Below are positions 3,662 through 43,805 of a DNA stretch of 64,000 nucleotides, piece after piece (position 1 is the first letter of the stretch; every line of letters begins with the position of its first letter). Where the stretch lies: sequence record NC_010583.1; one strand, written 5' to 3'. A program made the position numbers and the translations under genes. The DNA is from Escherichia phage Eps7. Under the pieces are notes generated by a model, which made no database searches, was not told where the DNA came from, and saw nothing but the letters and a program-made list of their open reading frames with translations.

Positions 3662-4078
3662 TTATTCACCTGCGGCCTGTTTTACTTCCTCCGCTACGCC
3701 TAACAATTGCGCTACAGCTTCCAGCGTTTCAAGTTTAGCACTTTCAAGGCTTGCCAGATCGTCGGCATCTTTTACGATACCTGAATCAATAGCGTGTTTA
3801 GCGATGACGCGCACATAGTGAGCTTTACGGACACTAGACCCGCCGCCAACTTTACGCGGTTTATCGCTTTTCTGATAGGCTTTTGCACTGGTCAATTTAG
3901 AACGTACAGACACCGGACTTGCAGCGCCAACGGCGGCGGCAATTTCTTTCAAGCCGTCACTATTCGCAAACTCAATCCCGCTTTTAGCGACCATTTCAGA
4001 ATACATAGAAACAGCTTTTTCGGTGTTTTCTTCGTTCCAAGAGAATTTTGCGGTTTTTTCGGTTTTAACGTTAGACAT
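3662..4078 (-). CDS. hypothetical pre-early protein (possible A2-like DNA-binding protein)
   Basis: 138-aa ORF, Lys/Ala-rich, directly downstream of A1-like gene region; assignment by position only. Confidence 0.4.
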   Translation of the reverse strand: MSNVKTEKTAKFSWNEENTEKAVSMYSEMVAKSGIEFANSDGLKEIAAAVGAASPVSVRSKLTSAKAYQKSDKPRKVGGGSSVRKAHYVRVIAKHAIDSGIVKDADDLASLESAKLETLEAVAQLLGVAEEVKQAAGE

Positions 4079-4177
4079 AATTTAATACTCCATTCAATTA
4101 TTAATTAAGGGATTATGATTAACTAATGTTAATCCATATATTCCCCATATTTCAGGGGAATATAAAGTTAGCACTAA

Positions 4178-4429
4178 TTAGCTAATAGCTTGCCATTTAT
4201 CATCTTTCTGAATGATCTTTACAACGTCGCCGGATTTAACGCGAACATTATAAATTGGCTTGCCGTGGTTACTGCGTTCCGTTTCCGCATAGACCGCTTC
4301 AATTTTATCGAAAGGATCTAGCGCCGCACCTTTAATACGTTCGGCTTTTCCGGTTAATTCATCCGTTTTAGTAACGAAAGGAATAAATACAGATTGACCT
4401 ACTTTCGGCGCGGTAATAACGTTTTGCAT
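4178..4429 (-). CDS. hypothetical protein
   Basis: 83-aa ORF ending the minus-strand pre-early block. Confidence 0.4.
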   Translation of the reverse strand: MQNVITAPKVGQSVFIPFVTKTDELTGKAERIKGAALDPFDKIEAVYAETERSNHGKPIYNVRVKSGDVVKIIQKDDKWQAIS

Positions 4430-29158: not shown

Positions 29159-29527
29159 TTATATCGCCTGAGTAAATGTACGACTAATAACGTCGTTCTG
29201 TTGTTCACGCGTCAGTGCATTAAATCGAACAGCATAGCCAGAGACACGAATGGTCAACTGAGGGTATTTTTCAGGATGTTTCTGTGCATCCAAAAGCTGA
29301 TCACGACTTAACACATTGACATTTAGGTGCTGACCTCCCTCGACCTGAGGAATTACTTCAACATCTACGATGCGAAAGGCTTCAGGATCAAAGTGAGGTG
29401 TGATACCTTCTAGATCTTCAACTAGAACTTTTTGTTTAAGTTCACCATCTTTAGAGTATAATTGAATGATCTGATTGTCATGAACAAGGTTAATTACGCC
29501 GGATTTAAGGTTTTGGTACGCTTTCAT
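29159..29527 (-). CDS. hypothetical protein
   Basis: 122-aa ORF. Confidence 0.5.
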
Positions 29528-29710
29528 TAGATCTCCCTGATGTTAGAATTTGGCTCAGCTTTTTGTTAACCCAGAAGCAAGATAAAAACTGGGAGGCAGG
29601 CTGTTTATTAAGTGAATACCCGATAATCGCTCGTAGTCCGGCTTGTGGATTGATAGTCCCATTCAGTTTAATAAACACAGAGATCTGGCACAAAGGCCTG
29701 ATCTTATCTT

Positions 29711-29787
29711 TGGTAGTTAGTAGTGGATTTGAACCACTGTAGTCGCTCCGTATGAAGGAGGTGCATAACCTCTCTGCCAACTAACTA
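29711..29787 (-). tRNA. tRNA with anticodon CAT (Met or Ile-lysidine type)
   Basis: manual fold: acceptor TAGTTAG/CTAACTA, T-arm GGTTCAAATCC, anticodon loop TTCATAC, encoded CCA. Confidence 0.6.
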
Positions 29788-29883
29788 TTATGTTTTACTA
29801 GACTAAGTAAGTATTCTTTATACTCTTTAGACCAATTAGTCTTTTTTAAACTTTCCTGGACGCATAGTCTTACTTCCTAAATT

Positions 29884-29960
29884 TGGTACTCCGGGAGGGA
29901 TTTAAACCCCCGATCTCTCGGTTATCAGCCGAGTGCTTTAGATCGCTAAGCTACCGAAGC
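29884..29960 (-). tRNA. tRNA-Ile (GAT)
   Basis: manual fold: anticodon stem CTCGG/CCGAG, loop CTGATAA, T-loop TTTAAAT, encoded CCA. Confidence 0.6.
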
Positions 29961-29961
29961 A

Positions 29962-30165
29962 TTAACATTTAATTGCAGAACGTTTACCATTTCTAGGCGC
30001 ACCTGGAAGTCGTGCACGTTCTGCCATTCTTCGCTTAATCTTTGGGATATTTTCTAGTGTTTGTTCTTCAGGCTTAATACCTGAAACACTACACCACTGA
30101 TTACCATCCCATGCGGTAATGATCATAACACCATTACCCATAATCTTTTGTGAAGTAATTCTCAT
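29962..30165 (-). CDS. hypothetical protein
   Basis: 67-aa ORF. Confidence 0.4.
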   Translation of the reverse strand: MRITSQKIMGNGVMIITAWDGNQWCSVSGIKPEEQTLENIPKIKRRMAERARLPGAPRNGKRSAIKC

Positions 30166-30458
30166 TATAACAACTCGTCTAAGTAAGAGGTATACTGGTA
30201 TTTAGCTTCACCAGTTTTATCTACTTCGACTTCTGTTCTAGGTACTTTTCGTACCAGACCGTGAATCATCTTATATTGAATAGATTTAGATGGTTCGTGA
30301 TCTTTAGGAAAGACCTGCTTAACTGTAACTACTTTAAATCCCTCACGTGGTGTTAGTACAACAACTTGATCACCTTCTTTGATTTTCCAAGACTCAGGAA
30401 ATTCATAAGTGTAGCGTTGACCACCGGTAAGGAATATAACAGAAAGATAACGTTTCAT
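30165..30458 (-). CDS. hypothetical protein
   Basis: 97-aa ORF 32 nt downstream of promoter. Confidence 0.5.
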   Translation of the reverse strand: MKRYLSVIFLTGGQRYTYEFPESWKIKEGDQVVVLTPREGFKVVTVKQVFPKDHEPSKSIQYKMIHGLVRKVPRTEVEVDKTGEAKYQYTSYLDELL

Positions 30459-30489
30459 TTGGTTTTCCTCTCATTAATTTATATAAACA

Positions 30490-30518
30490 TTATATCAAGA
30501 AATAAGAGGAAAGGCAAA
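30490..30518 (-). promoter_or_regulatory. sigma70-type early promoter (-35 TTGCCT)
   Basis: ATTATA 30490-30495, AGGCAA 30513-30518, 17-bp spacer. Confidence 0.55.
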
Positions 30519-30533
30519 TGAATTTTTAAATTT

Positions 30534-30608
30534 GGTGCTCCCACCAGGAATCGAACCCGGTTCAGATGCTTACAAGGCAACTGCATCGCCAGCAATGCTT
30601 TAGGAGCA
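30534..30608 (-). tRNA. tRNA-Thr (TGT)
   Basis: manual fold: T-arm CCGGGTTCGATTCCTGG, anticodon loop CTTGTAA, encoded CCA. Confidence 0.6.
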
Positions 30609-30774
30609 ATAAACCCGTTATTTCAACGGGATTTCTTTTTCAAATACAGGAGACTTATCAGACATTACTGTCATAGCCAACTGCTGTAGAAATTCGAATG
30701 AGAGTTTTAAACGTTCTTCGCCCAACTCAACCTCAACGCGCTTCATTCGTTTATCTACCTTTATCTTTAGATTA

Positions 30775-30996
30775 TCAGCCATCTTCGGGTTCTCTTTGCT
30801 CAGCTATTGCTAGCCAGTCTGGTAAAAGAAACTTAGTACGAAATTCTTCATATGTTTCTTCCGGATGAAAGCTATAGCCTTGCTTTTCATCATTTAATAA
30901 AACCGAACCGTCTTCCTGCTCATAAGCTCGGTATGTTTCACCAATAATTAAAACTCGCCTATTAGGGTTTTTATTACGAAACTCAAAAACGTCCAT
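30775..30996 (-). CDS. hypothetical protein
   Basis: 73-aa ORF. Confidence 0.5.
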   Translation of the reverse strand: MDVFEFRNKNPNRRVLIIGETYRAYEQEDGSVLLNDEKQGYSFHPEETYEEFRTKFLLPDWLAIAEQREPEDG

Positions 30997-31011
30997 AACG
31001 TTTCCTTAAAT

Positions 31012-31086
31012 TGGTGCGGGATACGAGAGTCGAACTCGTGTCTACTGGTTGGAAGCCAGTTATTCTAGCCACTGAACTAATCACGC
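31012..31086 (-). tRNA. tRNA-Gly (TCC)
   Basis: manual fold: anticodon stem ACTGG/CCAGT, loop CTTCCAA, T-loop TTCGACT, CCA. Confidence 0.65.
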
Positions 31087-31092
31087 ATAAAT

Positions 31093-31168
31093 TGGCTGGA
31101 GAAGGAGGAATCGAACCTACCATTAACGGAGTCAAAGGCCGTTGTGCTAACCGTTACACTACTCTCCA
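31093..31168 (-). tRNA. tRNA-Gln (TTG)
   Basis: manual fold: U1-A72, discriminator G, anticodon loop CTTTGAC, T-loop TTCGATT, CCA. Confidence 0.6.
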
Positions 31169-31174
31169 AGTATT

Positions 31175-31250
31175 TGGCTGGGATGCCACGGATCGAACGT
31201 GGAACCTTCGGAGTCAGAGGCCGACGATCTGCCAATTGATCTACATCCCA
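31175..31250 (-). tRNA. tRNA-Gln (CTG)
   Basis: manual fold: U1-A72, discriminator G, anticodon loop CTCTGAC, D-stem GATC, CCA. Confidence 0.6.
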
Positions 31251-31258
31251 ATAATTTT

Positions 31259-31459
31259 TTATTCTTCAGGAACCGTGGCTATTGGATCTGGTTCTTCTAG
31301 ACGTTTACCATTATGATCGACACGAATAATGCCACAACCTTCACAGATTACAACAGCACCATAGCCTTCTTTAACTTCGGCTTCTGTAATCAGACCAGAT
31401 AAATCACCAGTATCTTTGCCCCACATATCAATAGAGCATTCTTTGCAGAAATCAGCCAT
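31259..31459 (-). CDS. zinc-ribbon-like small protein
   Basis: 66-aa ORF with CxxC...CxxC. Confidence 0.5.
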   Translation of the reverse strand: MADFCKECSIDMWGKDTGDLSGLITEAEVKEGYGAVVICEGCGIIRVDHNGKRLEEPDPIATVPEE

Positions 31460-31483
31460 ATTTTATTTCCTATTTAAGTTAAT

Positions 31484-31558
31484 TGGTGCATCCTCAGGGA
31501 ATCGAACCCCGATCGTAAAGTTCGTAGCTTTACATTCTTTCCGTTGAAATAAGGACGC
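31484..31558 (-). tRNA. tRNA-Arg (ACG)
   Basis: manual fold: anticodon stem TAAAG/CTTTA, loop CTACGAA, T-loop TTCGATT, CCA. Confidence 0.6.
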
Positions 31559-31564
31559 AATATT

Positions 31565-31641
31565 TGGGGTGGCTAGTGGAATTCGAATCCACATAGGCCT
31601 GATTCACAATCAGGATCATTAACCAATTATGATATAGCCAC
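31565..31641 (-). tRNA. tRNA-His (GTG)
   Basis: manual fold: anticodon stem CCTGA/TCAGG, loop TTGTGAA, T-loop TTCGAAT, CCA. Confidence 0.7.
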
Positions 31642-31960
31642 AATTGAAATCTCTAGTTATCCCTTTCGGAGGGGCTAAAGGGCGATACCCATTCTAAAGA
31701 CTTCAATTGTGGCGGCTCTCCGAAACTCATCACACTAACAACTAGTTGATTACTTCTGGATTCTCGCCCAGAAAATTCTCTAGAAAGGTGCACCGTTACT
31801 CTTTGAGCCATTAATGTATCAAGAAGCAGAAGGACTTGAACCTTCACGAGATAGACCATTTATCTCAGCCTCGTTTTCGGGTATCTTATGAGGAGTGGAT
31901 GTTCCCCTTACGCCCTTTAGGAAGCCCCGTCTACCGATTCCGGCATACTTCAAGAATTAT
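31642..31960 (-). other. unresolved tRNA-like / structured RNA region
   Basis: ORF-free; contains Leu-tRNA-like D-arm GGAATCGGTAGAC and a T-arm GAAGGTTCAAGTCCTTC without clean acceptor pairing or CCA. Confidence 0.3.
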
Positions 31961-32164
31961 TTAAAACTTGTAACCTTCGGGAACCTTATCCTTAACACCA
32001 ATATACTCAGCTTGGATGTAATAATCAGGTACATGATCTTTTGGCAGATTCTTGTTAGTATCATGAACCTCAGCTCTAGCTTCTTCTTCAGAATCAAAAC
32101 CACGATACCAGATTTCACCACCCCAGCCACGTTCACTTTCGGTATACTTAACAATGTGTTTCAT
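31961..32164 (-). CDS. hypothetical protein
   Basis: track ORF 31961..32215 trimmed to internal Met so it does not overlap tRNA. Confidence 0.4.
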   Translation of the reverse strand: MKHIVKYTESERGWGGEIWYRGFDSEEEARAEVHDTNKNLPKDHVPDYYIQAEYIGVKDKVPEGYKF

Positions 32165-32182
32165 AAGGTTTTCCTTATTAGT

Positions 32183-32272
32183 TGGAGGAAGGTAATGGAG
32201 TCGAACCATCACCATATCGCTACAGCGGGCAGGTTTTCAAGACCTGTTACATACCACTATGTCCTACCTTCC
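32183..32272 (-). tRNA. tRNA-Ser (TGA), long variable arm
   Basis: manual fold: acceptor GGAAGGT/ACCTTCC, anticodon stem CAGGT/ACCTG, loop CTTGAAA, CCA; 90 nt. Confidence 0.65.
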
Positions 32273-32279
32273 AGTTGTT

Positions 32280-32370
32280 TGGCGGAAGAAGAGAGATTCG
32301 AACTCTCAAGCCGTTTTACCAGTCAGCCACTTTCCAAGCGGTTTTCGTCACCTAATCGATTTGCTCTTCC
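32280..32370 (-). tRNA. tRNA, long-variable-arm class (anticodon unresolved, possibly Ser-GGA)
   Basis: perfect T-arm GAGAGTTCGAATCTCTC, acceptor GGAAGAG/TTCTTCC, CCA; 91 nt. Confidence 0.5.
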
Positions 32371-32544
32371 GTAGATCTCAGGATTAAATCATAAACTTCA
32401 TTAGCGGATACTGGAAGTATGAGATTATACATCTTTTGGTCATACCTCTGACCATACTCTATAAACACATACTCTTTAGTTAATGTATTAACAGCTAACC
32501 AGATATCAGTTATAGGAGTTTTCATCATGAGTTAATCCAATGTT

Positions 32545-32625
32545 TGGTAGGGATGGAGGGACTCGAACCCACACCCGAAGACTAGAATCTAAATCTAGCG
32601 CGTCTGCCAATTTCGCCACATCCCC
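32545..32625 (-). tRNA. tRNA-Leu (TAG)
   Basis: manual fold: anticodon stem CTAGA/TCTAG, loop TTTAGAT, extended variable region, CCA. Confidence 0.6.
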
Positions 32626-32632
32626 ATTTTAT

Positions 32633-32851
32633 TTAGTTAGAAATAAATAATAATCCCGCAACAATGGAACCTACGCCACTGAACACCATTATCAGCATAG
32701 CTTCTAAGCTGATAAAGCGGACAGTATATGGAGCGCCCCAAGAATAATCAGTAAAGAAAGTTTTCTTTTCTTTAGCTAAATCTTTAACAGTTCTAAAATA
32801 GATAGCTAGTGCTAAAGCTGCAAGAACTATAGAGGCTGCTAAGAATACCAT
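32633..32851 (-). CDS. small membrane protein
   Basis: 72-aa ORF with two hydrophobic segments. Confidence 0.45.
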   Translation of the reverse strand: MVFLAASIVLAALALAIYFRTVKDLAKEKKTFFTDYSWGAPYTVRFISLEAMLIMVFSGVGSIVAGLLFISN

Positions 32852-32870
32852 ATTATTTCCTTAATTTGTT

Positions 32871-32946
32871 TGGTGGAGTCACTCAGAATTGAACTGAGTT
32901 CCACTGCTTGCAAGGCAGTAAGTTTAACCAAATAACCTATGACCCC
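32871..32946 (-). tRNA. tRNA-Ala (TGC)
   Basis: manual fold: G3-U70 pair, anticodon stem ACTGC/GCAGT, loop CTTGCAA, CCA. Confidence 0.6.
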
Positions 32947-32952
32947 GAATTT

Positions 32953-33031
32953 TGGTGGAGAATAACGGAATCGAACCGTTCTGATGTCCTCGGTGCAAGC
33001 GAGGTGTCCACTCCATGCAGACCCATTCCCC
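32953..33031 (-). tRNA. tRNA with anticodon TGC (second Ala-like copy)
   Basis: manual fold: G3-U70, anticodon stem CCTCG/CGAGG, loop CTTGCAC, T-arm AACGGTTCGATTCCGTT, CCA. Confidence 0.5.
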
Positions 33032-33040
33032 AAAATTTAT

Positions 33041-33304
33041 TTATTCTCTATACATATCGAGAACAGTTGCTACAATCTGAGCTTCTAGCCTAGCAATATC
33101 TTTATTCACTATATCAGATTCTACTACTAAGTGATTATATATTGCTTCAGTTTTAGCAAGATCTACATCAGATAGTTTATTAAGACTATTATAATACTTA
33201 GCATTATTGCAACGTTTCTTCATATCGGAAACTCGTTTATGGAGTGTTCTTTGTTGATAACGTTGTGACATTAGTTTCTTAGCCATATCTTTCAGATCAA
33301 ACAT
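33041..33304 (-). CDS. hypothetical protein
   Basis: 87-aa ORF with AGGAAT RBS. Confidence 0.5.
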   Translation of the reverse strand: MFDLKDMAKKLMSQRYQQRTLHKRVSDMKKRCNNAKYYNSLNKLSDVDLAKTEAIYNHLVVESDIVNKDIARLEAQIVATVLDMYRE

Positions 33305-33548
33305 GGATATTCCTTCTAGTTTACTAAGGCTATTAGCTCGGTGTGCGTATTACCCTCAGACATTAGCCAGTAGAGGATAATCGCTCTTCACAAACCCGAT
33401 ACACTATTCAGTTGCCGCTGAATCTAGCGGACTAATCTAGAACTTCTCCCGAGTCGTAGGGATCGTGCTTTTTTGGCAGCCAGTCCTAGGTCGAGCTAAT
33501 ACCTTAGTGAACTTTGATGAGGATTTCTCCTCATCAATTTATATAAAT
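33305..33548 (-). ncRNA. candidate structured leader / small RNA
   Basis: 245-nt ORF-poor transcribed segment between promoter and next start codon; long-range complement TAAGGTATTAGCTCG vs CGAGCTAATAGCCTTA; local hairpins. Confidence 0.3.
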
Positions 33549-33577
33549 ATTATAACAAGAAATTAAGCATCAAGCAA
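33549..33577 (-). promoter_or_regulatory. sigma70-type early promoter
   Basis: ATTATA 33549-33554, AAGCAA 33572-33577, 17-bp spacer. Confidence 0.6.
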
Positions 33578-33929
33578 GTACATTTTTAGCGATTTCTTGT
33601 AGTTCCTTAACGTCGCTAACGAAAAGGTAATCAGAGCTTCCAGAGTGCATACTCTGCATAACCACACCACCATCCGGTGCATCTTCTTTCAGTGTGATAC
33701 CTAACCAGAACTCGGCAAAACTAGGTGTTACCTCACCTTGACTTGCCTTGAACACATCGCCTTCTGTGATCTCTTGACCAGTGGAGAGTCCCATGTATGG
33801 TACGTTCAGATCAATATCTTTGTAGAACTCAGCTAGATCTTGCTCGAAATCCCAACCTTTAGAGATAGCGAACTCCATTGTTACATGACCGAAATAGCCT
33901 TGAACCTTGCTTGATAATTGCATTTGCAA
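33570..33929 (-). CDS. hypothetical protein
   Basis: 119-aa ORF. Confidence 0.5.
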   Translation of the reverse strand: MQMQLSSKVQGYFGHVTMEFAISKGWDFEQDLAEFYKDIDLNVPYMGLSTGQEITEGDVFKASQGEVTPSFAEFWLGITLKEDAPDGGVVMQSMHSGSSDYLFVSDVKELQEIAKNVLA

Positions 33930-33948
33930 TTCCTTATTTTGAGTTAAT

Positions 33949-34022
33949 TGGTACTCGGTGATAGAATCGAACTATCGCAACCGCCGTGTAAAGACGGGGT
34001 TCTCCCATTAAACTAACCGAGC
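33949..34022 (-). tRNA. tRNA-Val (TAC)
   Basis: manual fold: T-arm GATAGTTCGATTCTATC, anticodon stem CCGTC/GGCGG, loop TTTACAC, CCA. Confidence 0.6.
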
Positions 34023-34026
34023 AATT

Positions 34027-34104
34027 TGGTGGATTGCCTGGGATTCGAACCCAGAACTGACGGATTAAAGGTCCGCTACTCTTATCCAGTTGAGCTAGCA
34101 ATCC
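34027..34104 (-). tRNA. tRNA-Lys (TTT)
   Basis: manual fold: anticodon stem GCGGA/TCCGT, loop CCTTTAA, T-arm CTGGGTTCGAATCCCAG, CCA. Confidence 0.6.
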
Positions 34105-34490
34105 AATTTTTCTACTAATAATTTAAAAGCATCTAGTACAGGTACTTCAAACCATTCTCCAGATACTCTATAATCTTTAAGAAGATTATGTAATTCTTTC
34201 TCTGTACGTCTTTTATCCGACGAAAATCTGAAATGGTATAGCTTGTAGTCTCTATTAGGTGAATAAGTTTGATAACTTGTTAACCTCTCATTCACATCTA
34301 TAGTCATACCTATTTTATACATGCCTGGCCATGCTGGATTACCAATTACATATACAAAACCTTCCGTTATAGGTATTTTATGCTCCCTTTTATACTTTAA
34401 GAGATTTAAGGCTGCCATTCGATAACAGAATCTAAACTCTGAAGTTTTTAACTTACCTTCTTTACCTGAAATTTCGTTATATTTGCTCAT
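34095..34490 (-). CDS. T5orf172-type (GIY-YIG-like) domain protein
   Basis: 131-aa ORF with YVIGNPAWPGMYKIGMT...RL...Y pattern; 3' end overlaps tRNA by ~10 nt. Confidence 0.5.
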   Translation of the reverse strand: MSKYNEISGKEGKLKTSEFRFCYRMAALNLLKYKREHKIPITEGFVYVIGNPAWPGMYKIGMTIDVNERLTSYQTYSPNRDYKLYHFRFSSDKRRTEKELHNLLKDYRVSGEWFEVPVLDAFKLLVEKLDC

Positions 34491-34744
34491 ATAAGCTCTT
34501 ATGAGCTTATCATCTATAATGAAGTTATCAGGAAGGTTTAAGGCAGCTAAAAACTTTATTAATTAGCATAGACTTCCTTAATAGAATAAACTTTTAAGTT
34601 AAGGTGATTAATACCAAATTCCGCCATCACTTCGTTTTCATCTTTACCGTAATGGGCTAGTGGATACTTCTTACGATCTTTGCTAGAACGTAGATCACTT
34701 ACTTTTAAACGAAATAATTTCATTTCGAAATCCTTCTATTAAAT

Positions 34745-34822
34745 TGGAAGCGGGTGCAGGAATCGAACCTACCTCTTTCTAGCTTATGAGACTAGCGATC
34801 TCTACCAGAGATCTAACCCGCA
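34745..34822 (-). tRNA. tRNA-Met (CAT), possibly initiator type
   Basis: manual fold: unpaired 1-72, anticodon loop CTCATAA, T-loop TTCGATT, CCA. Confidence 0.55.
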
Positions 34823-34828
34823 ATTGTT

Positions 34829-34907
34829 TGGTCTCCGTGGGAGGATTTGAACCCCCCGACCCTATCGCCCCAAACGAAACGCTCTGGCCAAACTGAGCTA
34901 CACGGAG
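34829..34907 (-). tRNA. tRNA-Pro (TGG)
   Basis: manual fold: acceptor CTCCGTG/CACGGAG, anticodon loop TTTGGGG, T-loop TTCAAAT, CCA. Confidence 0.55.
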
Positions 34908-34938
34908 AATATTCTTTGTTAACTCACTTTATAAATAT

Positions 34939-34967
34939 ATTATACAGAGAATTAAGCTAAATAGCAA
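34939..34967 (-). promoter_or_regulatory. sigma70-type early promoter upstream of tRNA pair
   Basis: ATTATA 34939-34944, TAGCAA 34962-34967, 17-bp spacer. Confidence 0.6.
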
Positions 34968-35212
34968 CTACATTTTTAATAAATTTACTTATTAGGTAAG
35001 TCACCGAGCTATCAACTCATGCTAGCGAAAGTTTGCGAGACCTTCTTTAAGTACTAGAACACACCCGCCGATGTGTCGGACTTACTTAATAAGTAAACTT
35101 TCGTTTACTTACACCTACCTGGTCGGGAGGATTTTCAGCGACTAGAACCGGCCGGAAACTCATCGCCTTGTTTATCTAGGAGTCCGTTCTCTAGGAAGCA
35201 GAAACCTAAATT

Positions 35213-35287
35213 TGGTGCGGTCGGAGGGAATCGAACCCTCAACTTCTGGTTGGCAACCAAAAAATTATACCTTTTAACTACGAACGC
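35213..35287 (-). tRNA. tRNA-Gly (GCC)
   Basis: manual fold: T-arm GAGGGTTCGATTCCCTC, anticodon stem TTTGG/CCAGA, loop TTGCCAA, CCA. Confidence 0.6.
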
Positions 35288-35302
35288 ATAATAAGTCAAT
35301 CT

Positions 35303-35440
35303 AGGCAGGACTTGAACCTGCTATCACTTGTGCGGATTTACGAGAACCATTCTTTCACTCGAATCGAACGAGCTTCTACCCTCGGCAAGCTGGTGTCCCC
35401 TCTCCACCACGCTAGAATGATAATTAATGCCTGCTCCTTT
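35303..35440 (-). other. unresolved tRNA-like region (two T-arm-like motifs, no encoded CCA)
   Basis: GCAGGTTCAAGTCCTGC and GCTCGTTCGATTCGAGT motifs; acceptor stems could not be paired by hand. Confidence 0.3.
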
Positions 35441-35500
35441 GAATCAAGAAGTCCACCCCGGACTTTGGGTCTTTGCAGTACATCACGCTGCTCTGATGTT

Positions 35501-35576
35501 TGGTACACCCACTAGGACTTGAACCTAGAACCCTCCGCTTAAGAGGCGGTAGCTCTAACCATTGAGCTATGGATGT
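35501..35576 (-). tRNA. tRNA-Lys (CTT)
   Basis: manual fold: T-arm CTAGGTTCAAGTCCTAG, anticodon loop CTCTTAA, CCA. Confidence 0.55.
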
Positions 35577-35652
35577 ATTATTATGTTTTGCAGTGCTCTA
35601 AATATAGACACTTCCCACGCGGTGGTTATCTATACCAGCGTCCTGCAAAAAT

Positions 35653-35729
35653 TGGCGCGACCGATGGGATTCGAACCCACATTTTCTCCCGTGACAGGGG
35701 AGTACCATTACCAAGCCAGCCCCGATCGC
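35653..35729 (-). tRNA. tRNA-Asp (GTC)
   Basis: manual fold: anticodon stem CTCCC/GGGAG, loop CTGTCAC, T-loop TTCGAAT, discriminator G, CCA. Confidence 0.65.
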
Positions 35730-36025
35730 ATAATTTATTTACTCAGTTTTGAGTTTTTCGATAGCTTCCTCAACCTCTTTTAGAGCTTCACGACGGGCAT
35801 TCTGTTGCTGCATATCTTGAATTAATGTCAGTTTTTGTTTTTAATTTCTTGATCCCAAACCTTAATATTATTAATCAGACTATCACGATCAGCTTCTAGT
35901 CGAGCAATTGCACGAGTTGTCATATCTATTTCCTCAGTTATTAATGAAAATGGTATCTGTGACTGAATTCAATATCAGTAATGATAGCTGGTTGGCTACC
36001 GGTTTACTTAACTCTACACAGAATA

Positions 36026-36108
36026 TGGCGGGCCGTGTAGGATTCGAACCTACGTTGTCTTTCGACATGGATTAACAGTCCACCGCCAAACCGCTTGGCT
36101 AACGACCC
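36026..36108 (-). tRNA. tRNA-Asn (GTT) with enlarged variable region
   Basis: manual fold: anticodon arm GTGGACTGTTAATCCAT, T-arm GTAGGTTCGAATCCTAC, CCA; 83 nt. Confidence 0.55.
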
Positions 36109-36115
36109 TAAAATT

Positions 36116-36191
36116 TGGACGACCGCATGAGATTCGAACTCACATAAGGAGGTTTTGCAGGCCTCCGCCTAAGCCATTCAGCCAACGGTCG
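36116..36191 (-). tRNA. tRNA-Cys (GCA)
   Basis: manual fold: anticodon loop CTGCAAA, discriminator U, T-loop TTCGAAT, CCA. Confidence 0.55.
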
Positions 36192-36369
36192 AGTTATCTT
36201 GCTTTTCGAGATTAGTAAACTCTAGATCTTTAGAATGTCCTATAGATCTAGCATAATAGCCATCTCCAGCATCATAGCCTGACTTACCACACTCACACAT
36301 CTTAAACTCTCTATAACGAGTGAAAATATGTTCAGAACCACAACACTTAAATTTAACTAACATTTTCAT
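36178..36369 (-). CDS. zinc-ribbon-like small protein
   Basis: 63-aa ORF with CC...CxC; 3' end overlaps tRNA by ~14 nt so stop may be misplaced. Confidence 0.4.
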   Translation of the reverse strand: MKMLVKFKCCGSEHIFTRYREFKMCECGKSGYDAGDGYYARSIGHSKDLEFTNLEKQDNSTVG

Positions 36370-36590
36370 TTAACACGCTCCGGTAAATCTTCGAGTTTAT
36401 ATTGAGTAGCCACATTAGCAGCATCTAGTAACAAACCCATATGTTTAAGAATCCTAGTGATAGCTTCGCCTTCTGCTTCTTCTACAAAAGTGCGTAGTTG
36501 AATGAAGTCAATACCACCATCCATACCAGAGAAAATGTTAAGTAAGCGAAGCATTACCAGCTTACGTTCTTTTAATTCTTGTTCTGCCAT
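36366..36590 (-). CDS. hypothetical protein
   Basis: track ORF 36366..36608 trimmed to Met 30 nt downstream of promoter -10. Confidence 0.5.
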   Translation of the reverse strand: MAEQELKERKLVMLRLLNIFSGMDGGIDFIQLRTFVEEAEGEAITRILKHMGLLLDAANVATQYKLEDLPERVK

Positions 36591-36619
36591 GTTGCTTCTC
36601 CAGTTCAATTTATGTAATA

Positions 36620-36648
36620 ATTATACAGAACTTTAAGGATTTAAGCAA
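36620..36648 (-). promoter_or_regulatory. sigma70-type early promoter
   Basis: ATTATA 36620-36625, AAGCAA 36643-36648, 17-bp spacer. Confidence 0.6.
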
Positions 36649-36928
36649 CTACATTTTTCAGAAATTTGATGCCTTTCTTTTTCTTCTTATACTTCCACGT
36701 TAATGGATTCTGTCGATTATGAACGCTTGAGATCTTTGTCTCGTCAAATTTCTTCAATACCATGTAATCACACGCCAACTGCTCTAGTGGAATGGTTTCT
36801 CCATCAAAAGCATAAACATAAGGCTGTTGACTAGCACGATAATGATAGACTTTGTTAACTCTACGTTTCAGCGACTTATCCGCGCAGTAAATAAAGAAGT
36901 TTTCAGGATGCATCAGCATCTCCTTCAA
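36641..36928 (-). CDS. hypothetical protein
   Basis: 95-aa ORF directly downstream of tRNA. Confidence 0.45.
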   Translation of the reverse strand: MKEMLMHPENFFIYCADKSLKRRVNKVYHYRASQQPYVYAFDGETIPLEQLACDYMVLKKFDETKISSVHNRQNPLTWKYKKKKKGIKFLKNVVA

Positions 36929-36930
36929 AT

Positions 36931-37005
36931 TGGTGCAACCTGTACGTAACGATCGTACCTCTTCTCCTTTTCAGGGAGACGCTAATCCATCTCAGCTAAA
37001 GTCGC
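36931..37005 (-). tRNA. tRNA-Phe (GAA)
   Basis: manual fold: anticodon stem TCTCC/GGAGA, loop CTGAAAA, CCA; atypical T-loop. Confidence 0.5.
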
Positions 37006-37011
37006 AAATAT

Positions 37012-37088
37012 TGGCAAACCTACTAGGACTCGAACCTAGACCGTACGGTTTTGGAGACCGACATGCTGTCCAGTAACACTCTAGGAAT
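37012..37088 (-). tRNA. tRNA-like, anticodon probably CCA (Trp); acceptor stem imperfect
   Basis: T-arm CTAGGTTCGAGTCCTAG, anticodon arm CGGTCTCCAAAACCG, CCA end; 5' acceptor pairs poorly. Confidence 0.4.
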
Positions 37089-37096
37089 GCAGAAAT

Positions 37097-37173
37097 TGGC
37101 GTCCTGTGCGGGGATCGAACCCGCAAATCCTACCTTGAAAGGGTAGTGACTTTACCAGTTTGTCTAACAGGAC
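37097..37173 (-). tRNA. tRNA-Glu (TTC)
   Basis: manual fold: acceptor GTCCTGT/ACAGGAC, anticodon stem CTACC/GGTAG, loop CTTTCAA, CCA. Confidence 0.7.
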
Positions 37174-37180
37174 TTAAATT

Positions 37181-37271
37181 TGGTGTTGGATGATGGAGTC
37201 GAACCACCCGAGACCCTTCCGAGTCGGCAGATTTACAGTCTGCTTCGCTACCTCTACGATACTAATCCAAC
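37181..37271 (-). tRNA. tRNA-Tyr (GTA), long variable arm
   Basis: manual fold: anticodon stem GCAGA/TCTGC, loop CTGTAAA, 91 nt, CCA. Confidence 0.65.
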
Positions 37272-37396
37272 ATATTTGAATGAAAAATAAGTCGGTTAAA
37301 CTCAAGGTGGAATATTTCAGGAAATCCTGACTTTACCCCTAAAAGCAACTCGCTTAGTTACTTCTCATTCAGATATGTTTTCCAAATTAGATAACT

Positions 37397-37426
37397 ATTA
37401 TATCAAGTTTTGAAGGACTGAGCAAG
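37397..37426 (-). promoter_or_regulatory. sigma70-type promoter overlapping a hairpin
   Basis: ATTATA 37397-37402, AGCAAG 37421-37426; inverted repeat CTGAGCAAG...CTTGCTCAG 37418-37450. Confidence 0.45.
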
Positions 37427-37461
37427 TCAAATTTTAAAGAACTTGCTCAGTGCTATATCAG

Positions 37462-37737
37462 TTACTCGAAGCTAGGAGTGACACTCAGTTTGAATGGAAG
37501 CTCGAACACTTCTTCATAATCATCATTGAGCGTAATTACACGACCTTCTAGCTTAGTCATGGTGATTTCGATATCAGCCTCTGCATCAGGAGCCATACCA
37601 GCTTCCACACATTTAGCTTTGACTTCCGGCAGAAGTTCTACATCGTAGAAATAAAGCCATTCAATCTCACCTTCCCAGCCACCCCAGGATTTACAAACAG
37701 CACTTTCAACACCAGTTGCAGTAACACGTTTTGACAT
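37462..37737 (-). CDS. hypothetical acidic protein
   Basis: 91-aa ORF 31 nt downstream of promoter. Confidence 0.5.
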   Translation of the reverse strand: MSKRVTATGVESAVCKSWGGWEGEIEWLYFYDVELLPEVKAKCVEAGMAPDAEADIEITMTKLEGRVITLNDDYEEVFELPFKLSVTPSFE

Positions 37738-37767
37738 TCGTTAACTCCTTCATCAATTTATATAACT

Positions 37768-37797
37768 ATTATAGCAGAAATCTTAAGTAAAAAGCAA
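37768..37797 (-). promoter_or_regulatory. sigma70-type early promoter
   Basis: ATTATA 37768-37773, AAGCAA 37792-37797, 18-bp spacer. Confidence 0.6.
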
Positions 37798-37827
37798 GTA
37801 CATTTTTAAAATTTCTGCTTGGAGGAG

Positions 37828-38034
37828 TTAAACTCCTGATTCTTCAGCCAGATCAAGCCCAACCAACGTGATTGCCATAATAGCCGCGCCATGTTCTTTC
37901 TCTCCTAGCTCTTTGGCTTGAGTGAGAATATTTAGGAACTGCTTTTGAAAATCTGCAACTTCTTCTGTCATGCCTGCTTCAGCAATAATTCCTTTCAGCA
38001 TAAAGCGTTGTGCCGTAATTTCAGGATTAGCCAT
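37828..38034 (-). CDS. hypothetical protein
   Basis: 68-aa ORF. Confidence 0.45.
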   Translation of the reverse strand: MANPEITAQRFMLKGIIAEAGMTEEVADFQKQFLNILTQAKELGEKEHGAAIMAITLVGLDLAEESGV

Positions 38035-38185
38035 TTATTATCTCCAGTTATTTAGAATGTAAGCCAAACTTAGGATCATAGCGATCGTAAGTCGTACCAT
38101 TAGTTGAAGCCTTGATGCTATGAAAACGACAGTACATAAATTTACGTAGTGCTTTCTTAATAGCTTTCATTTTATTTCCTTAATT

Positions 38186-38262
38186 TGGTAGGGGTGGTGG
38201 GATTCGAACCCACAAAACCTGAATTTTAAGTCCAGTACCTATGCCAATTCGATTACACCCCC
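38186..38262 (-). tRNA. tRNA with anticodon TAA (Leu-type) but short variable arm
   Basis: manual fold: T-arm GTGGGTTCGAATCCCAC, anticodon stem CTGGA/TTCAG, loop CTTAAAA, CCA; D-arm irregular. Confidence 0.45.
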
Positions 38263-38270
38263 ATGTAATC

Positions 38271-38608
38271 TTAGCGAATCTCTAAACCCTGGAAATATCG
38301 AGGGAATGGAGAGCCAACTTCAAAATTGATGCCCCAATTAAGTTCAACGAGTTCAGATTTATTAAGATCTAGGCCATTACCTTCAAAGATATAGCCGTAA
38401 ACCGCAGGGAACATAGCTGCTAGATCTTCCATATCGGAATGAGCATTGTGTTCTTCACGGAACTGCTCAACTCTTCAATAGAACTTTTCTAGGAGACTCA
38501 GGTACGATGAACGTTACCACATCAGTAGAATCATCGGTACGATACACCGTAGCTTGGAACAAGCCAACACCTAAAAGGTTTATTGCCGGAGTAGTAAAAA
38601 TATCCATC
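38271..38608 (-). CDS. hypothetical protein, frame interrupted near 38470
   Basis: two adjacent protein-like frames (MDIFTTPAINLL... and ...EQFREEHNAHSDMEDL...) each below track threshold. Confidence 0.35.
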
Positions 38609-38794
38609 TTAGCCTCGCTCAATGTCTAGACAAATTGCATATTCAGGGTTGATACCAGTACCTTTACATGTAGGACATTCCCATTCTCTACAGAAAATAT
38701 CCCCAGGTTCTGCATCATCCTGCCTACCACTACCATGACAGTCCTTACACCGACATTCTTCTAATGCTTTCTTCATTTCATAGAATCTAGACAT
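38609..38794 (-). CDS. zinc-finger-like small protein
   Basis: 61-aa ORF with CxxC...CxxC. Confidence 0.5.
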   Translation of the reverse strand: MSRFYEMKKALEECRCKDCHGSGRQDDAEPGDIFCREWECPTCKGTGINPEYAICLDIERG

Positions 38795-42708: not shown

Positions 42709-43805
42709 TTTAGGTATTTTTAAGAACTCTTATAAAAGCTCTTAAAGATACCCGACGGTAGGTAGGGTCAGCCCCCTCAGATTAAGCTCTGCAGCCCTTC
42801 CGTCAGACAATATCTTCCAGTTTAAGTCAGGGTGACTTTGTGGTTATGTTCTCCGTATGTGAAGAACTCGGTTAGGCTTAGGTCATGACTCCCAGCCTAC
42901 TGCTGCCACTCAACAGGAATTATCGCGAATTACCTGTACTATTGGGCACCATTAGTGACATCTCTCATGTCAGCGTTTCCCACTCTCATATTCACGCGGT
43001 CTGTTAGAATCGCACCTCCGATTTTCGATGCGAAGCTGGATGCCTAGTCTCAGGTTAAACGGGGCACACACTAGGCAGTGATCCCGAGTTCCGAGTTTGG
43101 TTGAGGCCGTCAGGTTTCCTCGTGGTTTAGCTGTTTCGATTCTAACCTAATACTGATCAGGTGGCGTACCTCCTGAACCGTCATAGTATGTACTCCAGCA
43201 GCGAATGCTTATCCGGTATAAGCCCGAGTTATCCGATTCTTTCCAGAAGGAGCAGTAAAGCTCAATGTCAGCCTGTGAGCATCTGGCAGTGTTATCACAT
43301 AAGTCAGTTCGACACCCCACATTTTAGTGCCTGGTAGATCCCGAATGAAGCCCTCAGTCGTTAGACCTCCATCATTCATCAAAGATTTACGCTACCCACT
43401 ATTCGATGGACAATCGCCGCATTGTGGTATACATACGTTTTCACTTGCATCCTAGACGGGTCAGCGTTGAAAGTTATATGGGTTTCTCAAGCCCAACCTT
43501 CAGTCTTCTACCCCTGGGACACGCACCGTATTTCACACTGTGCCTAGCTCCTGTTGAGACCCATCGTTTTGTATAAATTAGAGAAGAGTTTAGAGGAGAG
43601 GTTTCAGACGCCTCATTTTACAAGAAGTCTCGAACCTATATTCGTTACTCTAGTCACTTGGCCGGATATACCGGACTGGACTCGGAACTCTAACAGGTGA
43701 TCATTCTTAACCCACCGACTCTATTCAGTGTCAGAAGCTATCACTAGGTGAATCGCTAAAGCTCACTCAGCGTAATCGGCTCGCTGTTCTCTAATTTATG
43801 AATCT
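42709..43805 (-). other. ~1.1-kb ORF-free, G+C-elevated segment transcribed from an early promoter (candidate large non-coding RNA or foreign insert)
   Basis: no ORF of 60 codons or more in six frames; sampled G+C ~45-52 percent versus ~30-40 percent in flanks; promoter at 43806-43834 points into it. Confidence 0.4.

What the first reader, a model, noticed from the sequence alone, without database searches (positions are those of the whole stretch)
33305..33548. Promoter-proximal structured leader (candidate small RNA)
The promoter at 33549-33577 is ~245 nt from the next start codon, whereas other promoters are ~30 nt from theirs. The intervening sequence has a 15-nt long-range complement (TAAGGTATTAGCTCG with CGAGCTAATAGCCTTA), local hairpins (GATGAGGA-GAAA-TCCTCATC; CCGCT-GAATCT-AGCGG) and only a 12-codon ORF. 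T5 is reported to encode small stable RNAs in its tRNA region; this is a candidate.
Basis: partly seen in the sequence, partly recalled or inferred. Interest (0 to 1): 0.5.

Follow-up and report, generated by a model that had tools for sequence, protein, structure and literature searches.

The report
Phage T5 stable RNA "RNA2H" ortholog
The long "leader" behind this promoter is the counterpart of RNA2H, a roughly 172-nt stable RNA of unknown function already annotated in phage T5; its fold is strongly conserved among T5-like phages, so it is a real RNA gene but not a new one.

Summary
A consensus-type T5 early promoter lies at 33549-33577 on the minus strand. It is followed by about 245 nt with no ORF longer than 15 codons, and that stretch folds far better than shuffles (z = -5.3).

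The element is not new. It is the ortholog of misc_RNA "rna2H" ("stable RNA with unknown functions", 172 nt), which sits behind "promoter P13b" in the T5 record AY543070.1 and in the phage 5 record AJ604531.1.

About 500 phage records carry it, in three genera: Tequintavirus, Epseptimavirus and the Klebsiella genus Sugarlandvirus. Across 40 distinct sequences, 98% of predicted pair cells are paired, against 26-44% in slid controls, and 25 pairs show compensatory changes. The fold is a 22-bp closing helix P1 around a junction with four supported helices (P2/Px, P3, P4, P5). G·U pairs identify the minus strand as the RNA strand.

The promoter-plus-RNA unit keeps its place while the flanking genes change, so it is a self-contained RNA gene and not a gene-specific leader. 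The T5-annotated mature ends map inside P1 with a 2-bp stagger, which suggests excision by RNase III. This step is inferred, not shown. T5 RNAIV shares the same outer stem.

Function remains unknown. There is no Rfam family, no tRNA likeness and no E. coli homolog. Deletion mutants of the T5 tRNA region remain viable.

Novelty: already known. Interest: modest.

The parts
33549..33577 (-). Promoter, ortholog of T5 early promoter P13b: -35 TTGCTT (33577-33572), 17-nt spacer with TGn, -10 TATAAT (33554-33549). Start site expected near 33542.
   Evidence: Sequence read. The aligned stretch is annotated 'promoter P13b' in AJ604531.1 and AY543070.1. It is conserved in every relative examined, including Klebsiella phages.
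33514..33537 (-). P0, a 5'-proximal hairpin UUGAUGAGGAGAAAUCCUCAUCAA. It is a variable, optional part of the primary transcript and lies outside the annotated mature RNA.
   Evidence: It is 24 nt in the window and T5, about 118 nt in phage 5, bombadil and Tennessee, and absent in Klebsiella phages. The expanded form is not notably structured (z = -0.86).
33318..33513 (-). Whole P1-enclosed structured element: the precursor form of the RNA2H ortholog, 196 nt.
   Evidence: CM R1 hit at 33317-33514, 226.5 bits, E = 3.5e-65, the only full-length, high-scoring match in the window. blastn finds it in 504 phage records.
33328..33501 (-). Mature RNA2H ortholog, 174 nt. Ends are transferred from the T5 and phage 5 annotation: 5'-UAUUAGCUCG ... 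CGAGCUAAUAGCC-3'.
   Evidence: T5 rna2H lies at 31808-31979 of AY543070.1, and phage 5 rna2H at 4021-4192 of AJ604531.1. They were mapped through alignments A1-A3. The ends were not measured here.
33492..33513 (-). P1 5' strand. The outer 12 nt (33513-33502) lie outside the annotated mature RNA.
   Evidence: 7 of 22 P1 pairs show compensatory changes, including pairs outside the mature ends; 98.9% of cells are paired.
33318..33340 (-). P1 3' strand, with an invariant bulged G (33330). The annotated 3' end follows CC at 33328.
33481..33486 (-). P2 5' strand GGACUG. It pairs with UAGUCC at 33434-33429, which lies in the loop of Px.
   Evidence: 4 of 6 pairs are compensatory between coliphage and Klebsiella versions, plus an independent C-G to U-A change (with a U-G intermediate) within Klebsiella phages. 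100% of cells are paired.
33447..33462 (-). P3, a variable hairpin: UCCC-UACGACUC-GGGA here, and a 40-45 nt extended hairpin in other lineages.
   Evidence: 2 of 4 core pairs are compensatory.
33423..33441 (-). Px hairpin: UCUAG / CUAGA with a 9-nt loop AUUAGUCCG that contains the P2 3' strand. This gives either a loop-strand pseudoknot or alternative pairings.
   Evidence: 3 of 5 pairs are compensatory, in phage bobsandoy and in the Klebsiella clade. Steric feasibility was not established.
33392..33413 (-). P4 hairpin with a 10-nt loop AAUAGUGUAU (33408-33399). AGUGUAU is invariant in all 40 distinct sequences.
33345..33384 (-). P5, a long arm. The window carries the 'type A' version (loop GGCUAAU), shared with Klebsiella phages. 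T5 carries an unrelated sequence with the same pairing.
   Evidence: 7 of 11 pairs are compensatory. The blast match to T5 RNA2H stops at nt 113, where the arm differs.
33302..33317 (-). Unpaired AGAAGGAAUAUCCAUG: ribosome-binding site and start codon of the downstream 87-aa ORF, immediately after P1. There is no terminator between the RNA and the ORF.

Best explanation
The stretch is the ortholog of phage T5 RNA2H. It is a self-contained gene for a structured, non-coding stable RNA on the minus strand, transcribed by host sigma-70 RNA polymerase from its own strong early promoter (the P13b ortholog).

The primary transcript starts near 33542. It contains a dispensable 5' hairpin (P0) and then an element in which 5' and 3' flanks form a 22-bp duplex (P1). 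P1 closes a multi-helix junction holding a domain with P2/Px and P3, the P4 hairpin with an invariant AGUGUAU loop, and the long modular arm P5. There is no terminator, so transcription continues into the downstream ORF and the tRNA-Ala genes.

The roughly 174-nt RNA is inferred to be cut out by a double-strand-specific nuclease, most probably host RNase III, cleaving P1 with a 2-bp stagger in the way rRNA precursors are cut. That would leave a 10-bp terminal helix, which could explain why the RNA is stable, and it would also free the downstream mRNA/tRNA precursor.

What the RNA does afterwards is not known. The most likely class of function is an accessory, condition-dependent trans-acting RNA, such as a protein-binding or decoy RNA used in host takeover or counter-defence. 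A gene-specific regulator is less likely.

Shown here: identity with RNA2H, the conserved promoter, the covariation-supported fold, the strand, and the lack of coding potential. Inferred: the mature ends (taken from annotation), RNase III as the processing enzyme, and any trans function.
For: Identity: the blastn match in AJ604531.1 falls on misc_RNA rna2H, and the promoter aligns to 'promoter P13b'. T5 record AY543070.1 has the same two features. T5 RNA2H matches window 33501-33388 at 94.7% identity.

Fold: on the MAFFT alignment A3 (21 sequences), 97.0% of pair cells are paired versus 27-43% in slid controls, and 24 pairs change on both sides versus 0-5. On the model-based alignment A5 (40 distinct sequences), the figures are 98.2% versus 26-44%, and 25 pairs.

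Strand: 10% of paired cells are G·U, and four positions are nearly invariant G·U. These would be A/C mismatches on the other strand.

Self-contained gene: the promoter and RNA are conserved together while neighbours differ. Upstream is a 119-aa ORF, tRNA-Val, tRNA-Lys or tRNA-Glu. Downstream is the 87-aa ORF, tRNA-Ala or another ORF.

Processing: pairs of P1 outside the annotated mature ends covary (7-219, 8-218), so the precursor duplex itself is under selection. The annotated ends leave G + CC as a 3' overhang opposite GG, a 2-bp stagger. T5 RNAIV has the same outer-stem sequence and its annotated 5' end at the same 13-nt offset, and the window contains an RNAIV-like copy at 34982-35099.

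Not coding: no ORF above 15 codons, and relatives carry indels that are not multiples of three.
Against: No transcript data were available here. 'Stable RNA' and the 172-nt ends rest on GenBank annotation, and I could not read the primary evidence behind it: literature searches found no open paper describing RNA2H.

The covariation comes mostly from two deep clades (coliphage/Salmonella phages versus Klebsiella Sugarlandvirus) plus arm swaps, so the number of independent events is small.

P2 and Px overlap sterically. In Klebsiella phages a 5-nt loop would be fully paired, so the two helices may be alternatives rather than a pseudoknot.

RNase III was not tested. RNAIV's annotated 3' end gives a 1-nt rather than a 2-nt overhang.

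Dispensability: the T5 deletions 30661-38625 and 29191-32442 would remove RNA2H (AY543070.1 coordinates 31808-31979, assuming both coordinate sets use the same T5 reference, which was not checked). The mutants are viable (PMC11464382). Phage FFH1 has naturally lost P2-P4 while keeping P1.

In the retron Eco2/Eco7 rescue screen with fragments of the tRNA-rich region, only the tRNA-Tyr fragment and the ORF75 fragment rescued (PMC11555353).
Confidence: 0.8

Rival explanations
1. It is mainly a cis-acting processing and stability cassette. P1 is an RNase III site that separates the promoter-proximal RNA from the downstream tRNA-Ala or ORF transcript and sets its 5' end. The excised body is a by-product with no function of its own.
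For: Phage FFH1 retains the promoter, P0 and a complete P1 but has lost P2-P4 and half of P5. The same outer stem is reused around RNAIV. The outer P1 pairs covary. The RNA is dispensable in the laboratory (PMC11464382).
Against: The body is conserved across three genera, with compensatory changes in P2, Px, P3 and P5 and invariant loop and junction nucleotides (AGUGUAU, CCAAAAA.CAC, UUUG.GA). P5 was replaced by an unrelated sequence that preserves the same pairing. Selection on internal structure is not expected for a by-product.
Confidence: 0.12
2. It is a cis-regulatory leader, such as a riboswitch, attenuator or thermosensor, that controls the downstream 87-aa ORF.
For: It lies between a promoter and the next start codon, is highly structured and has no terminator.
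Against: The downstream gene is not constant: tRNA-Ala in T5, phage 5, bobsandoy and Klebsiella phages, and different ORFs in bombadil and GlastoCabaret. There is no expression platform: the RBS at 33316-33310 is unpaired and there is no terminator or antiterminator alternative. No Rfam riboswitch or leader family matches, even at E up to 10.
Confidence: 0.04
3. It is a decayed tRNA gene, a tRNA dimer, or a tRNA-like RNA, like the neighbouring T5 RNAs annotated as tRNA-like (RNA1, RNA2, RNA3).
For: It lies in a tRNA array. It has a four-way-junction topology with paired 5' and 3' ends and a 3' tail GCC.
Against: ARAGORN and the Rfam tRNA model find nothing there, although they find 29 and 27 tRNAs in the window. 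There is no T-loop-like GUUCGAAUC motif, unlike T5 RNA2. There is no sequence similarity to any other T5 stable RNA. Arm lengths do not fit a cloverleaf.
Confidence: 0.03
4. It encodes a small protein, on one strand or the other, as some GenBank records annotate.
For: Gene callers placed 'hypothetical protein' CDSs over it in several records. A 33-aa GTG ORF exists on the plus strand at 33465-33566.
Against: The substitution pattern is compensatory base-pair exchange rather than codon-wise change. Indels of 1, 22-25 and other non-multiple-of-3 lengths occur among close relatives. The minus-strand ORFs are 15 codons or fewer. The annotated CDSs differ in strand and frame between records.
Confidence: 0.01

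Closest known systems
Phage T5 RNA2H (misc_RNA rna2H in GenBank AY543070.1 and AJ604531.1)
   Same: Orthologous sequence, the same promoter (P13b) and the same place in the tRNA array upstream of tRNA-Ala. P1, P2, Px, P3 and P4 are also the same.
   Different: The window's P5 arm is a different sequence version (loop GGCUAAU, shared with Klebsiella phages) with the same pairing. An 87-aa ORF is inserted between the RNA and tRNA-Ala. There is one extra A in the A-run.
Phage T5 RNAIV (annotated stable RNA of unknown function)
   Same: It has the same architecture: a long closing duplex whose outer part has nearly the same sequence (AAGUUyACU.A / U.AGUAAAyUU), with the annotated mature 5' end 13 nt into the stem.
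   Different: The body is unrelated and shorter (103 nt). It lies about 1 kb upstream, before promoter P13a, and has no dedicated promoter annotated directly upstream.
RNase III excision of rRNAs from stems formed by their flanks, and T7 early-mRNA RNase III sites (established knowledge, not tested here)
   Same: A duplex of 20 bp or more is formed by sequences flanking the mature RNA. The staggered ends lie inside it, and downstream RNA is released by the same cut.
   Different: Cleavage by RNase III has not been shown for RNA2H. The product is a 170-nt RNA of unknown function.
Phage T4 small stable RNAs (species 1 and 2, rnaC/rnaD) in the T4 tRNA cluster (from my own knowledge)
   Same: They are phage-encoded stable RNAs embedded in a tRNA gene cluster, co-transcribed and processed with the tRNAs. 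Their function is unknown after decades, and they are dispensable in the laboratory.
   Different: No sequence or structural relationship was tested or is expected. The phage family is different.
GOLLD and ROOL, large structured RNAs often found next to tRNAs in phages and prophages (Rfam families)
   Same: They share the genomic context (phage tRNA arrays), are elaborately structured and have no known function.
   Different: They are 3-4 times larger. No Rfam match was found at the gathering threshold for the window or at permissive E-values for the region.

Membership tests
T5 RNA2H (annotated stable RNA) | Sequence homology to the annotated rna2H locus | tested here: met
   T5 RNA2H nt 1-113 match window 33501-33388 at 94.7% identity. 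The CM built on the family scores the window at 226.5 bits. The blast hit falls on the rna2H feature.
T5 RNA2H (annotated stable RNA) | Promoter P13b directly upstream, and a position in the tRNA array ahead of tRNA-Ala | tested here: met
   The promoter aligns base for base. tRNA-Ala genes follow at 33031-32871, after an inserted 87-aa ORF.
T5 RNA2H (annotated stable RNA) | Shared secondary structure | tested here: met
   97-98% of pair cells are paired across the family, with 24-25 pairs showing compensatory change.
T5 RNA2H (annotated stable RNA) | Accumulates as a discrete stable RNA of about 172 nt in infected cells | not testable with these tools
   Known only from the wording of the GenBank annotation. 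No open paper or RNA-seq data were found.
RNase III-excised RNA | Duplex of about two helical turns formed by the flanks of the mature RNA | tested here: met
   P1 has 22 bp, with one mismatch and one bulge. Its outer part is maintained by covariation.
RNase III-excised RNA | Mature ends inside the duplex with a 2-nt 3' overhang | tested here: inconclusive
   The annotated ends give a 2-bp stagger (GG opposite CC, plus the bulged G) for RNA2H. RNAIV's annotated ends give 1 nt. The ends come from annotation and were not measured.
RNase III-excised RNA | Cleavage depends on RNase III | not testable with these tools
   This needs an rnc mutant host or an in vitro cleavage assay.
tRNA / tRNA-like RNA | Cloverleaf detectable by tRNA models; T-loop motif | tested here: not met
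   ARAGORN and Rfam RF00005 report nothing between 33031 and 33949. There is no GUUCGAAUC-type loop.
Riboswitch / cis-regulatory leader | Match to a known aptamer family | tested here: not met
   There is no Rfam hit above chance in the window or in 7 relatives.
Riboswitch / cis-regulatory leader | Expression platform (terminator or RBS sequestration) and a constant regulated gene | tested here: not met
   There is no terminator on the minus strand and the RBS is unpaired. The downstream gene varies among relatives.
Hfq-type base-pairing sRNA | Rho-independent terminator with a U tail at the 3' end | tested here: not met
   There is no terminator-like site on the minus strand in 32500-34500. 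The 3' end lies inside a duplex.

The most novel reading that the evidence does not exclude
RNA2H, and RNAIV with its shared processing stem, may represent an unclassified family of phage ncRNAs that are cut out of early transcripts by RNase III. Their conserved core (the P2/Px loop-strand pseudoknot and the invariant AGUGUAU loop) would bind or decoy a host factor or defence nuclease. That would make it an RNA-based host-takeover or counter-defence device carried next to the counter-defence tRNAs in the tRNA-rich region. The swappable P5 and P3 arms would then reflect adaptation to different hosts.
Probability: 0.15. Interest if true: 0.65.

Novelty: already known. Interest (0 to 1): 0.3.

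Why it matters
T5 and T4 have been known for decades to make small stable RNAs alongside their tRNAs, and none has an assigned function. The tRNA-rich region of T5-like phages has recently been shown to hold counter-defence functions: tRNA-Lys against PARIS, and tRNA-Tyr and ORF75 against retrons.

This work adds no new element. It does give RNA2H a covariation-supported structure and defined conserved loops. It also identifies a probable processing mechanism shared with RNAIV, a natural deletion variant in phage FFH1, and a covariance model that could seed an Rfam family. Together these make targeted mutants (body versus P1) and partner searches straightforward.

It also flags spurious CDS annotations laid over this RNA in several phage genome records.

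Tried and rejected
- Rfam, at gathering thresholds on the whole window and at E up to 10 on the region and on 7 relatives: only tRNAs and chance snoRNA-like hits.
- ARAGORN: no tRNA or tmRNA in the region.
- Similarity to the other T5 stable RNAs (RNAI, III, IV, 1, 2, 3, X): none beyond 9-13-nt chance words. The name '2H' therefore does not reflect detectable homology to RNA2.
- Second copy in the window: none.
- Host homolog: no match in 5,426 complete E. coli genomes with blastn at word size 11.
- More distant relatives: CM R1 found nothing in the tRNA-Ala regions of Pectobacterium phage DU_PP_V or Aeromonas phage LAh_9. Two IMG/VR pattern scans and one metagenome scan returned only T5-type and Klebsiella-type copies among chance matches.
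- Single-sequence MFE helices: CUAGGACU/AGUUCUAG and CCGCU/AGCGG were rejected because they are not maintained in relatives.
- Target search for the invariant P4 loop: 3 complementary sites in the window versus 1.8 expected, one of them being the locus itself.
- Expanded P0 of phage 5: not significantly structured.
- Literature: no open-access paper mentions RNA2H, a T5 transcriptome, or RNase III processing of T5 RNAs.
- Tentative 3-bp helix P6 (33477-33475 with 33416-33414): it has one compensatory change, which is too little to accept.

Full report
**Context.** The window comes from a T5-like phage (Demerecviridae). Over 33000-33950 the closest records are Escherichia phage GreteKellenberger (97.3% identity) and Salmonella phage STG2 (96.8%). 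The finding lies in the minus-strand tRNA array, which holds 29 tRNA genes. It sits between a 119-aa ORF (33570-33929, PHROG 7572, unknown function) and an 87-aa ORF (33041-33304, no PHROG match). Two tRNA-Ala genes follow the 87-aa ORF.

**Checking the observation.** All coordinates here are on the minus strand.
- The next start codon is at 33304, 245 nt further on.
- No minus-strand ORF in between exceeds 15 codons.
- The 244-nt stretch folds at -85.1 kcal/mol, against -58.6 +/- 5.0 for dinucleotide shuffles (z = -5.28). The other strand folds equally well, so folding energy does not identify the strand.
- The long-range complement is part of a 22-bp helix (33513-33492 with 33340-33318).
- The GAUGAGGA hairpin is real (33537-33514).
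- The CCGCU/AGCGG hairpin exists here but is broken by an A/C mismatch in almost all relatives.

**Identity.** A blastn search of the 244 nt finds the element in 504 phage records, and 394 of them cover at least 80% of it. One hit is AJ604531.1 ("Bacteriophage 5 tRNA gene region"). It annotates the matching stretch as misc_RNA rna2H, "RNA 2H, stable RNA with unknown functions" (172 nt), preceded by "promoter P13b" and followed by tRNA-Ala. The complete T5 genome AY543070.1 carries the same features: rna2H at 31808-31979 and promoter P13b at 32001-32075. The window's promoter aligns base for base with P13b. T5 RNA2H nucleotides 1-113 match window 33501-33388 at 94.7% identity. Transferring the annotated ends gives a mature RNA at 33501-33328, 174 nt. 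I found no open-access paper that describes it, and Rfam has no family for it.

**Structure.** I collected non-redundant copies from several sources: Tequintavirus, Epseptimavirus and Klebsiella Sugarlandvirus records, plus viral and metagenomic contigs. RNAalifold on 21 sequences disagreed with part of the single-sequence MFE fold.

I tested an explicit structure on the MAFFT alignment. It gave 97.0% paired cells versus 27-43% when the partners are slid by 1-3 columns, and 24 pairs with changes on both sides versus 0-5. I then built a covariance model (R1, 213 positions) and used it to align 42 copies, 40 of them distinct. On that alignment 98.2% of cells are paired versus 26-44% in the slid controls, and 25 pairs change on both sides.

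The supported helices are:
- **P1**: 22 bp, with 7 compensatory pairs, some of them outside the mature ends.
- **P2**: GGACUG/UAGUCC, with 4 of 6 pairs compensatory, plus an independent C-G to U-A change within Klebsiella phages.
- **P3**: a variable hairpin, 16 nt here and 40-45 nt in other lineages.
- **Px**: UCUAG/CUAGA, with 3 compensatory pairs. Its loop contains the 3' strand of P2.
- **P4**: its 10-nt loop carries the invariant AGUGUAU.
- **P5**: 7 of 11 pairs compensatory.

P5 exists in two unrelated sequence versions that pair identically. The window shares its version with the Klebsiella phages, not with T5.

P2 and Px together would form a loop-strand pseudoknot. In Klebsiella phages the loop would be only 5 nt and fully paired, so the two helices may instead be alternative states. 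I leave this open.

G·U pairs make up 10% of paired cells, and four positions are nearly invariant G·U. These would be A/C mismatches in a plus-strand transcript, so the minus strand is the RNA strand.

One caveat applies throughout. Most of the covariation comes from two deep clades and from arm replacements, so the number of independent events is small.

**A gene, not a leader.** The promoter and the RNA travel together while their neighbours change:
- Upstream: the 119-aa ORF (window, 9-29, bobsandoy), tRNA-Val (T5), tRNA-Lys (phage 5) or tRNA-Glu (Klebsiella phages).
- Downstream: the 87-aa ORF (window, 9-29, Tennessee), tRNA-Ala directly (T5, phage 5, bobsandoy, SB10, Klebsiella Roth49) or other ORFs (bombadil, GlastoCabaret).

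There is no terminator on the minus strand, and the ribosome-binding site after P1 is unpaired. These points argue against a riboswitch or attenuator for the 87-aa ORF. The 5' hairpin P0 is 24 nt, about 118 nt, or absent, depending on the phage, so it is not a core part.

**How the RNA is probably made (inference).** Transcription must read through into the downstream genes, so the RNA has to be cut out. Three observations point to a double-strand-specific cut in P1:
- The annotated mature ends lie inside P1. The 5' end follows GG, and the 3' end follows the CC that pairs with that GG. This is a 2-bp stagger, as RNase III leaves.
- The 12 outer base pairs, which are not part of the mature RNA, are nevertheless maintained by compensatory change.
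- Weak secondary hits of the model turned out to be the reverse complement of T5 RNAIV. Its closing stem has almost the same outer sequence (AAGUUUACUUAUU / AAUAAGUAAAUUU), and its annotated 5' end lies at the same 13-nt offset.

The window holds an RNAIV-like element with that stem at 34982-35099.

The design resembles rRNA excision from flank-formed stems. It was not tested, and RNAIV's annotated 3' end fits slightly less well, giving a 1-nt overhang.

**Function.** It is unknown, and I could not narrow it much.
- The RNA is not tRNA-like.
- It has no relative among the other T5 stable RNAs, no second copy in the window and no E. coli homolog.
- Its invariant loop has no enriched complementary sites in the window.
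- The family seems confined to Markadamsvirinae and Sugarlandvirus. It was not found near tRNA-Ala in a Pectobacterium demerecvirus or an Aeromonas phage. Collection scans returned only the two known types.
- It is dispensable in the laboratory. The viable T5 deletions 30661-38625 and 29191-32442 would remove it, assuming those coordinates use the same T5 reference as AY543070.1, which I did not check (PMC11464382).
- In a screen of tRNA-rich-region fragments against retrons Eco2 and Eco7, only the tRNA-Tyr fragment and the ORF75 fragment rescued (PMC11555353).
- Phage FFH1 has naturally lost P2-P4 while keeping the promoter, P0 and an intact P1.

The FFH1 deletion keeps alive the rival view that the important part is the processing stem. 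Against that rival stand the conservation of the body across three genera and the structure-preserving replacement of P5.

**Verdict.** The element is the already-annotated T5 RNA2H with its promoter P13b: a real, structurally conserved, non-coding RNA gene, probably excised by RNase III, with unknown and non-essential function. It is known rather than novel. The new contributions are a tested secondary structure, the processing stem shared with RNAIV, the modular arms and the natural deletion variant.

Noticed in passing
window 34982-35099 (minus strand): An RNAIV-like element. It is a 118-nt structure closed by a long stem whose outer sequence (AGUUUACUUAUUA / UAAUAAGUAAAUU) nearly matches the outer part of RNA2H's P1. 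Fold z = -4.0. It aligns only partly with T5 RNAIV (35029-35080).
   Followed up: partly
window 31810-31954, 35295-35419, 35951-36023, 42709-43320 (minus strand): Orthologs of other T5-annotated RNAs of unknown function: RNA1, RNA2, RNA3, and parts of the 719-nt 'RNAX' upstream of tRNA-Arg. RNAI and RNAIII have no match in the window. None of these has an Rfam family at the gathering threshold.
   Followed up: partly
L182 (Escherichia phage FFH1, NC_024139.1) 690-805: A natural internal deletion of RNA2H. The promoter, P0 and the full P1 stem are kept, but P2-P4 and the 5' half of P5 are gone, leaving a hairpin directly upstream of tRNA-Ala.
   Followed up: yes
alignments A3/A5; window 33345-33384 and 33447-33462: Modular arm exchange. 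P5 occurs in two unrelated sequence versions (loop UYGAA in T5, loop GGCUAAU in the window and Klebsiella phages) with the same pairing. P3 is either a 16-nt hairpin or a 40-45-nt extended one. The combinations are mosaic among phages.
   Followed up: partly
L128 579-677; L004 1049-1237; L130 288-437: Several GenBank phage records annotate 'hypothetical protein' CDSs across the RNA2H locus, on either strand. Given the covariation and the indels, these look like gene-caller artefacts.
   Followed up: partly
window 33041-33304 (minus strand): The 87-aa ORF downstream of the RNA is named 'Rho-associated, coiled-coil containing protein kinase 2' in many relatives. It has no PHROG match, and the name looks like a spurious transfer. 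The ORF is absent at this position in T5, where tRNA-Ala follows the RNA directly.
   Followed up: partly
window 33514-33547 (plus strand): Read on the plus strand, the P0 hairpin is followed by TTTATATAAA and scores as the only terminator-like site in 32500-34500. No plus-strand gene is nearby, so it may be incidental, or it may stop antisense transcription.
   Followed up: no
window 32871-33031 (minus strand): There are two tandem tRNA-Ala(UGC) genes, where T5 has a single tRNA-Ala followed directly by tRNA-Leu.
   Followed up: no
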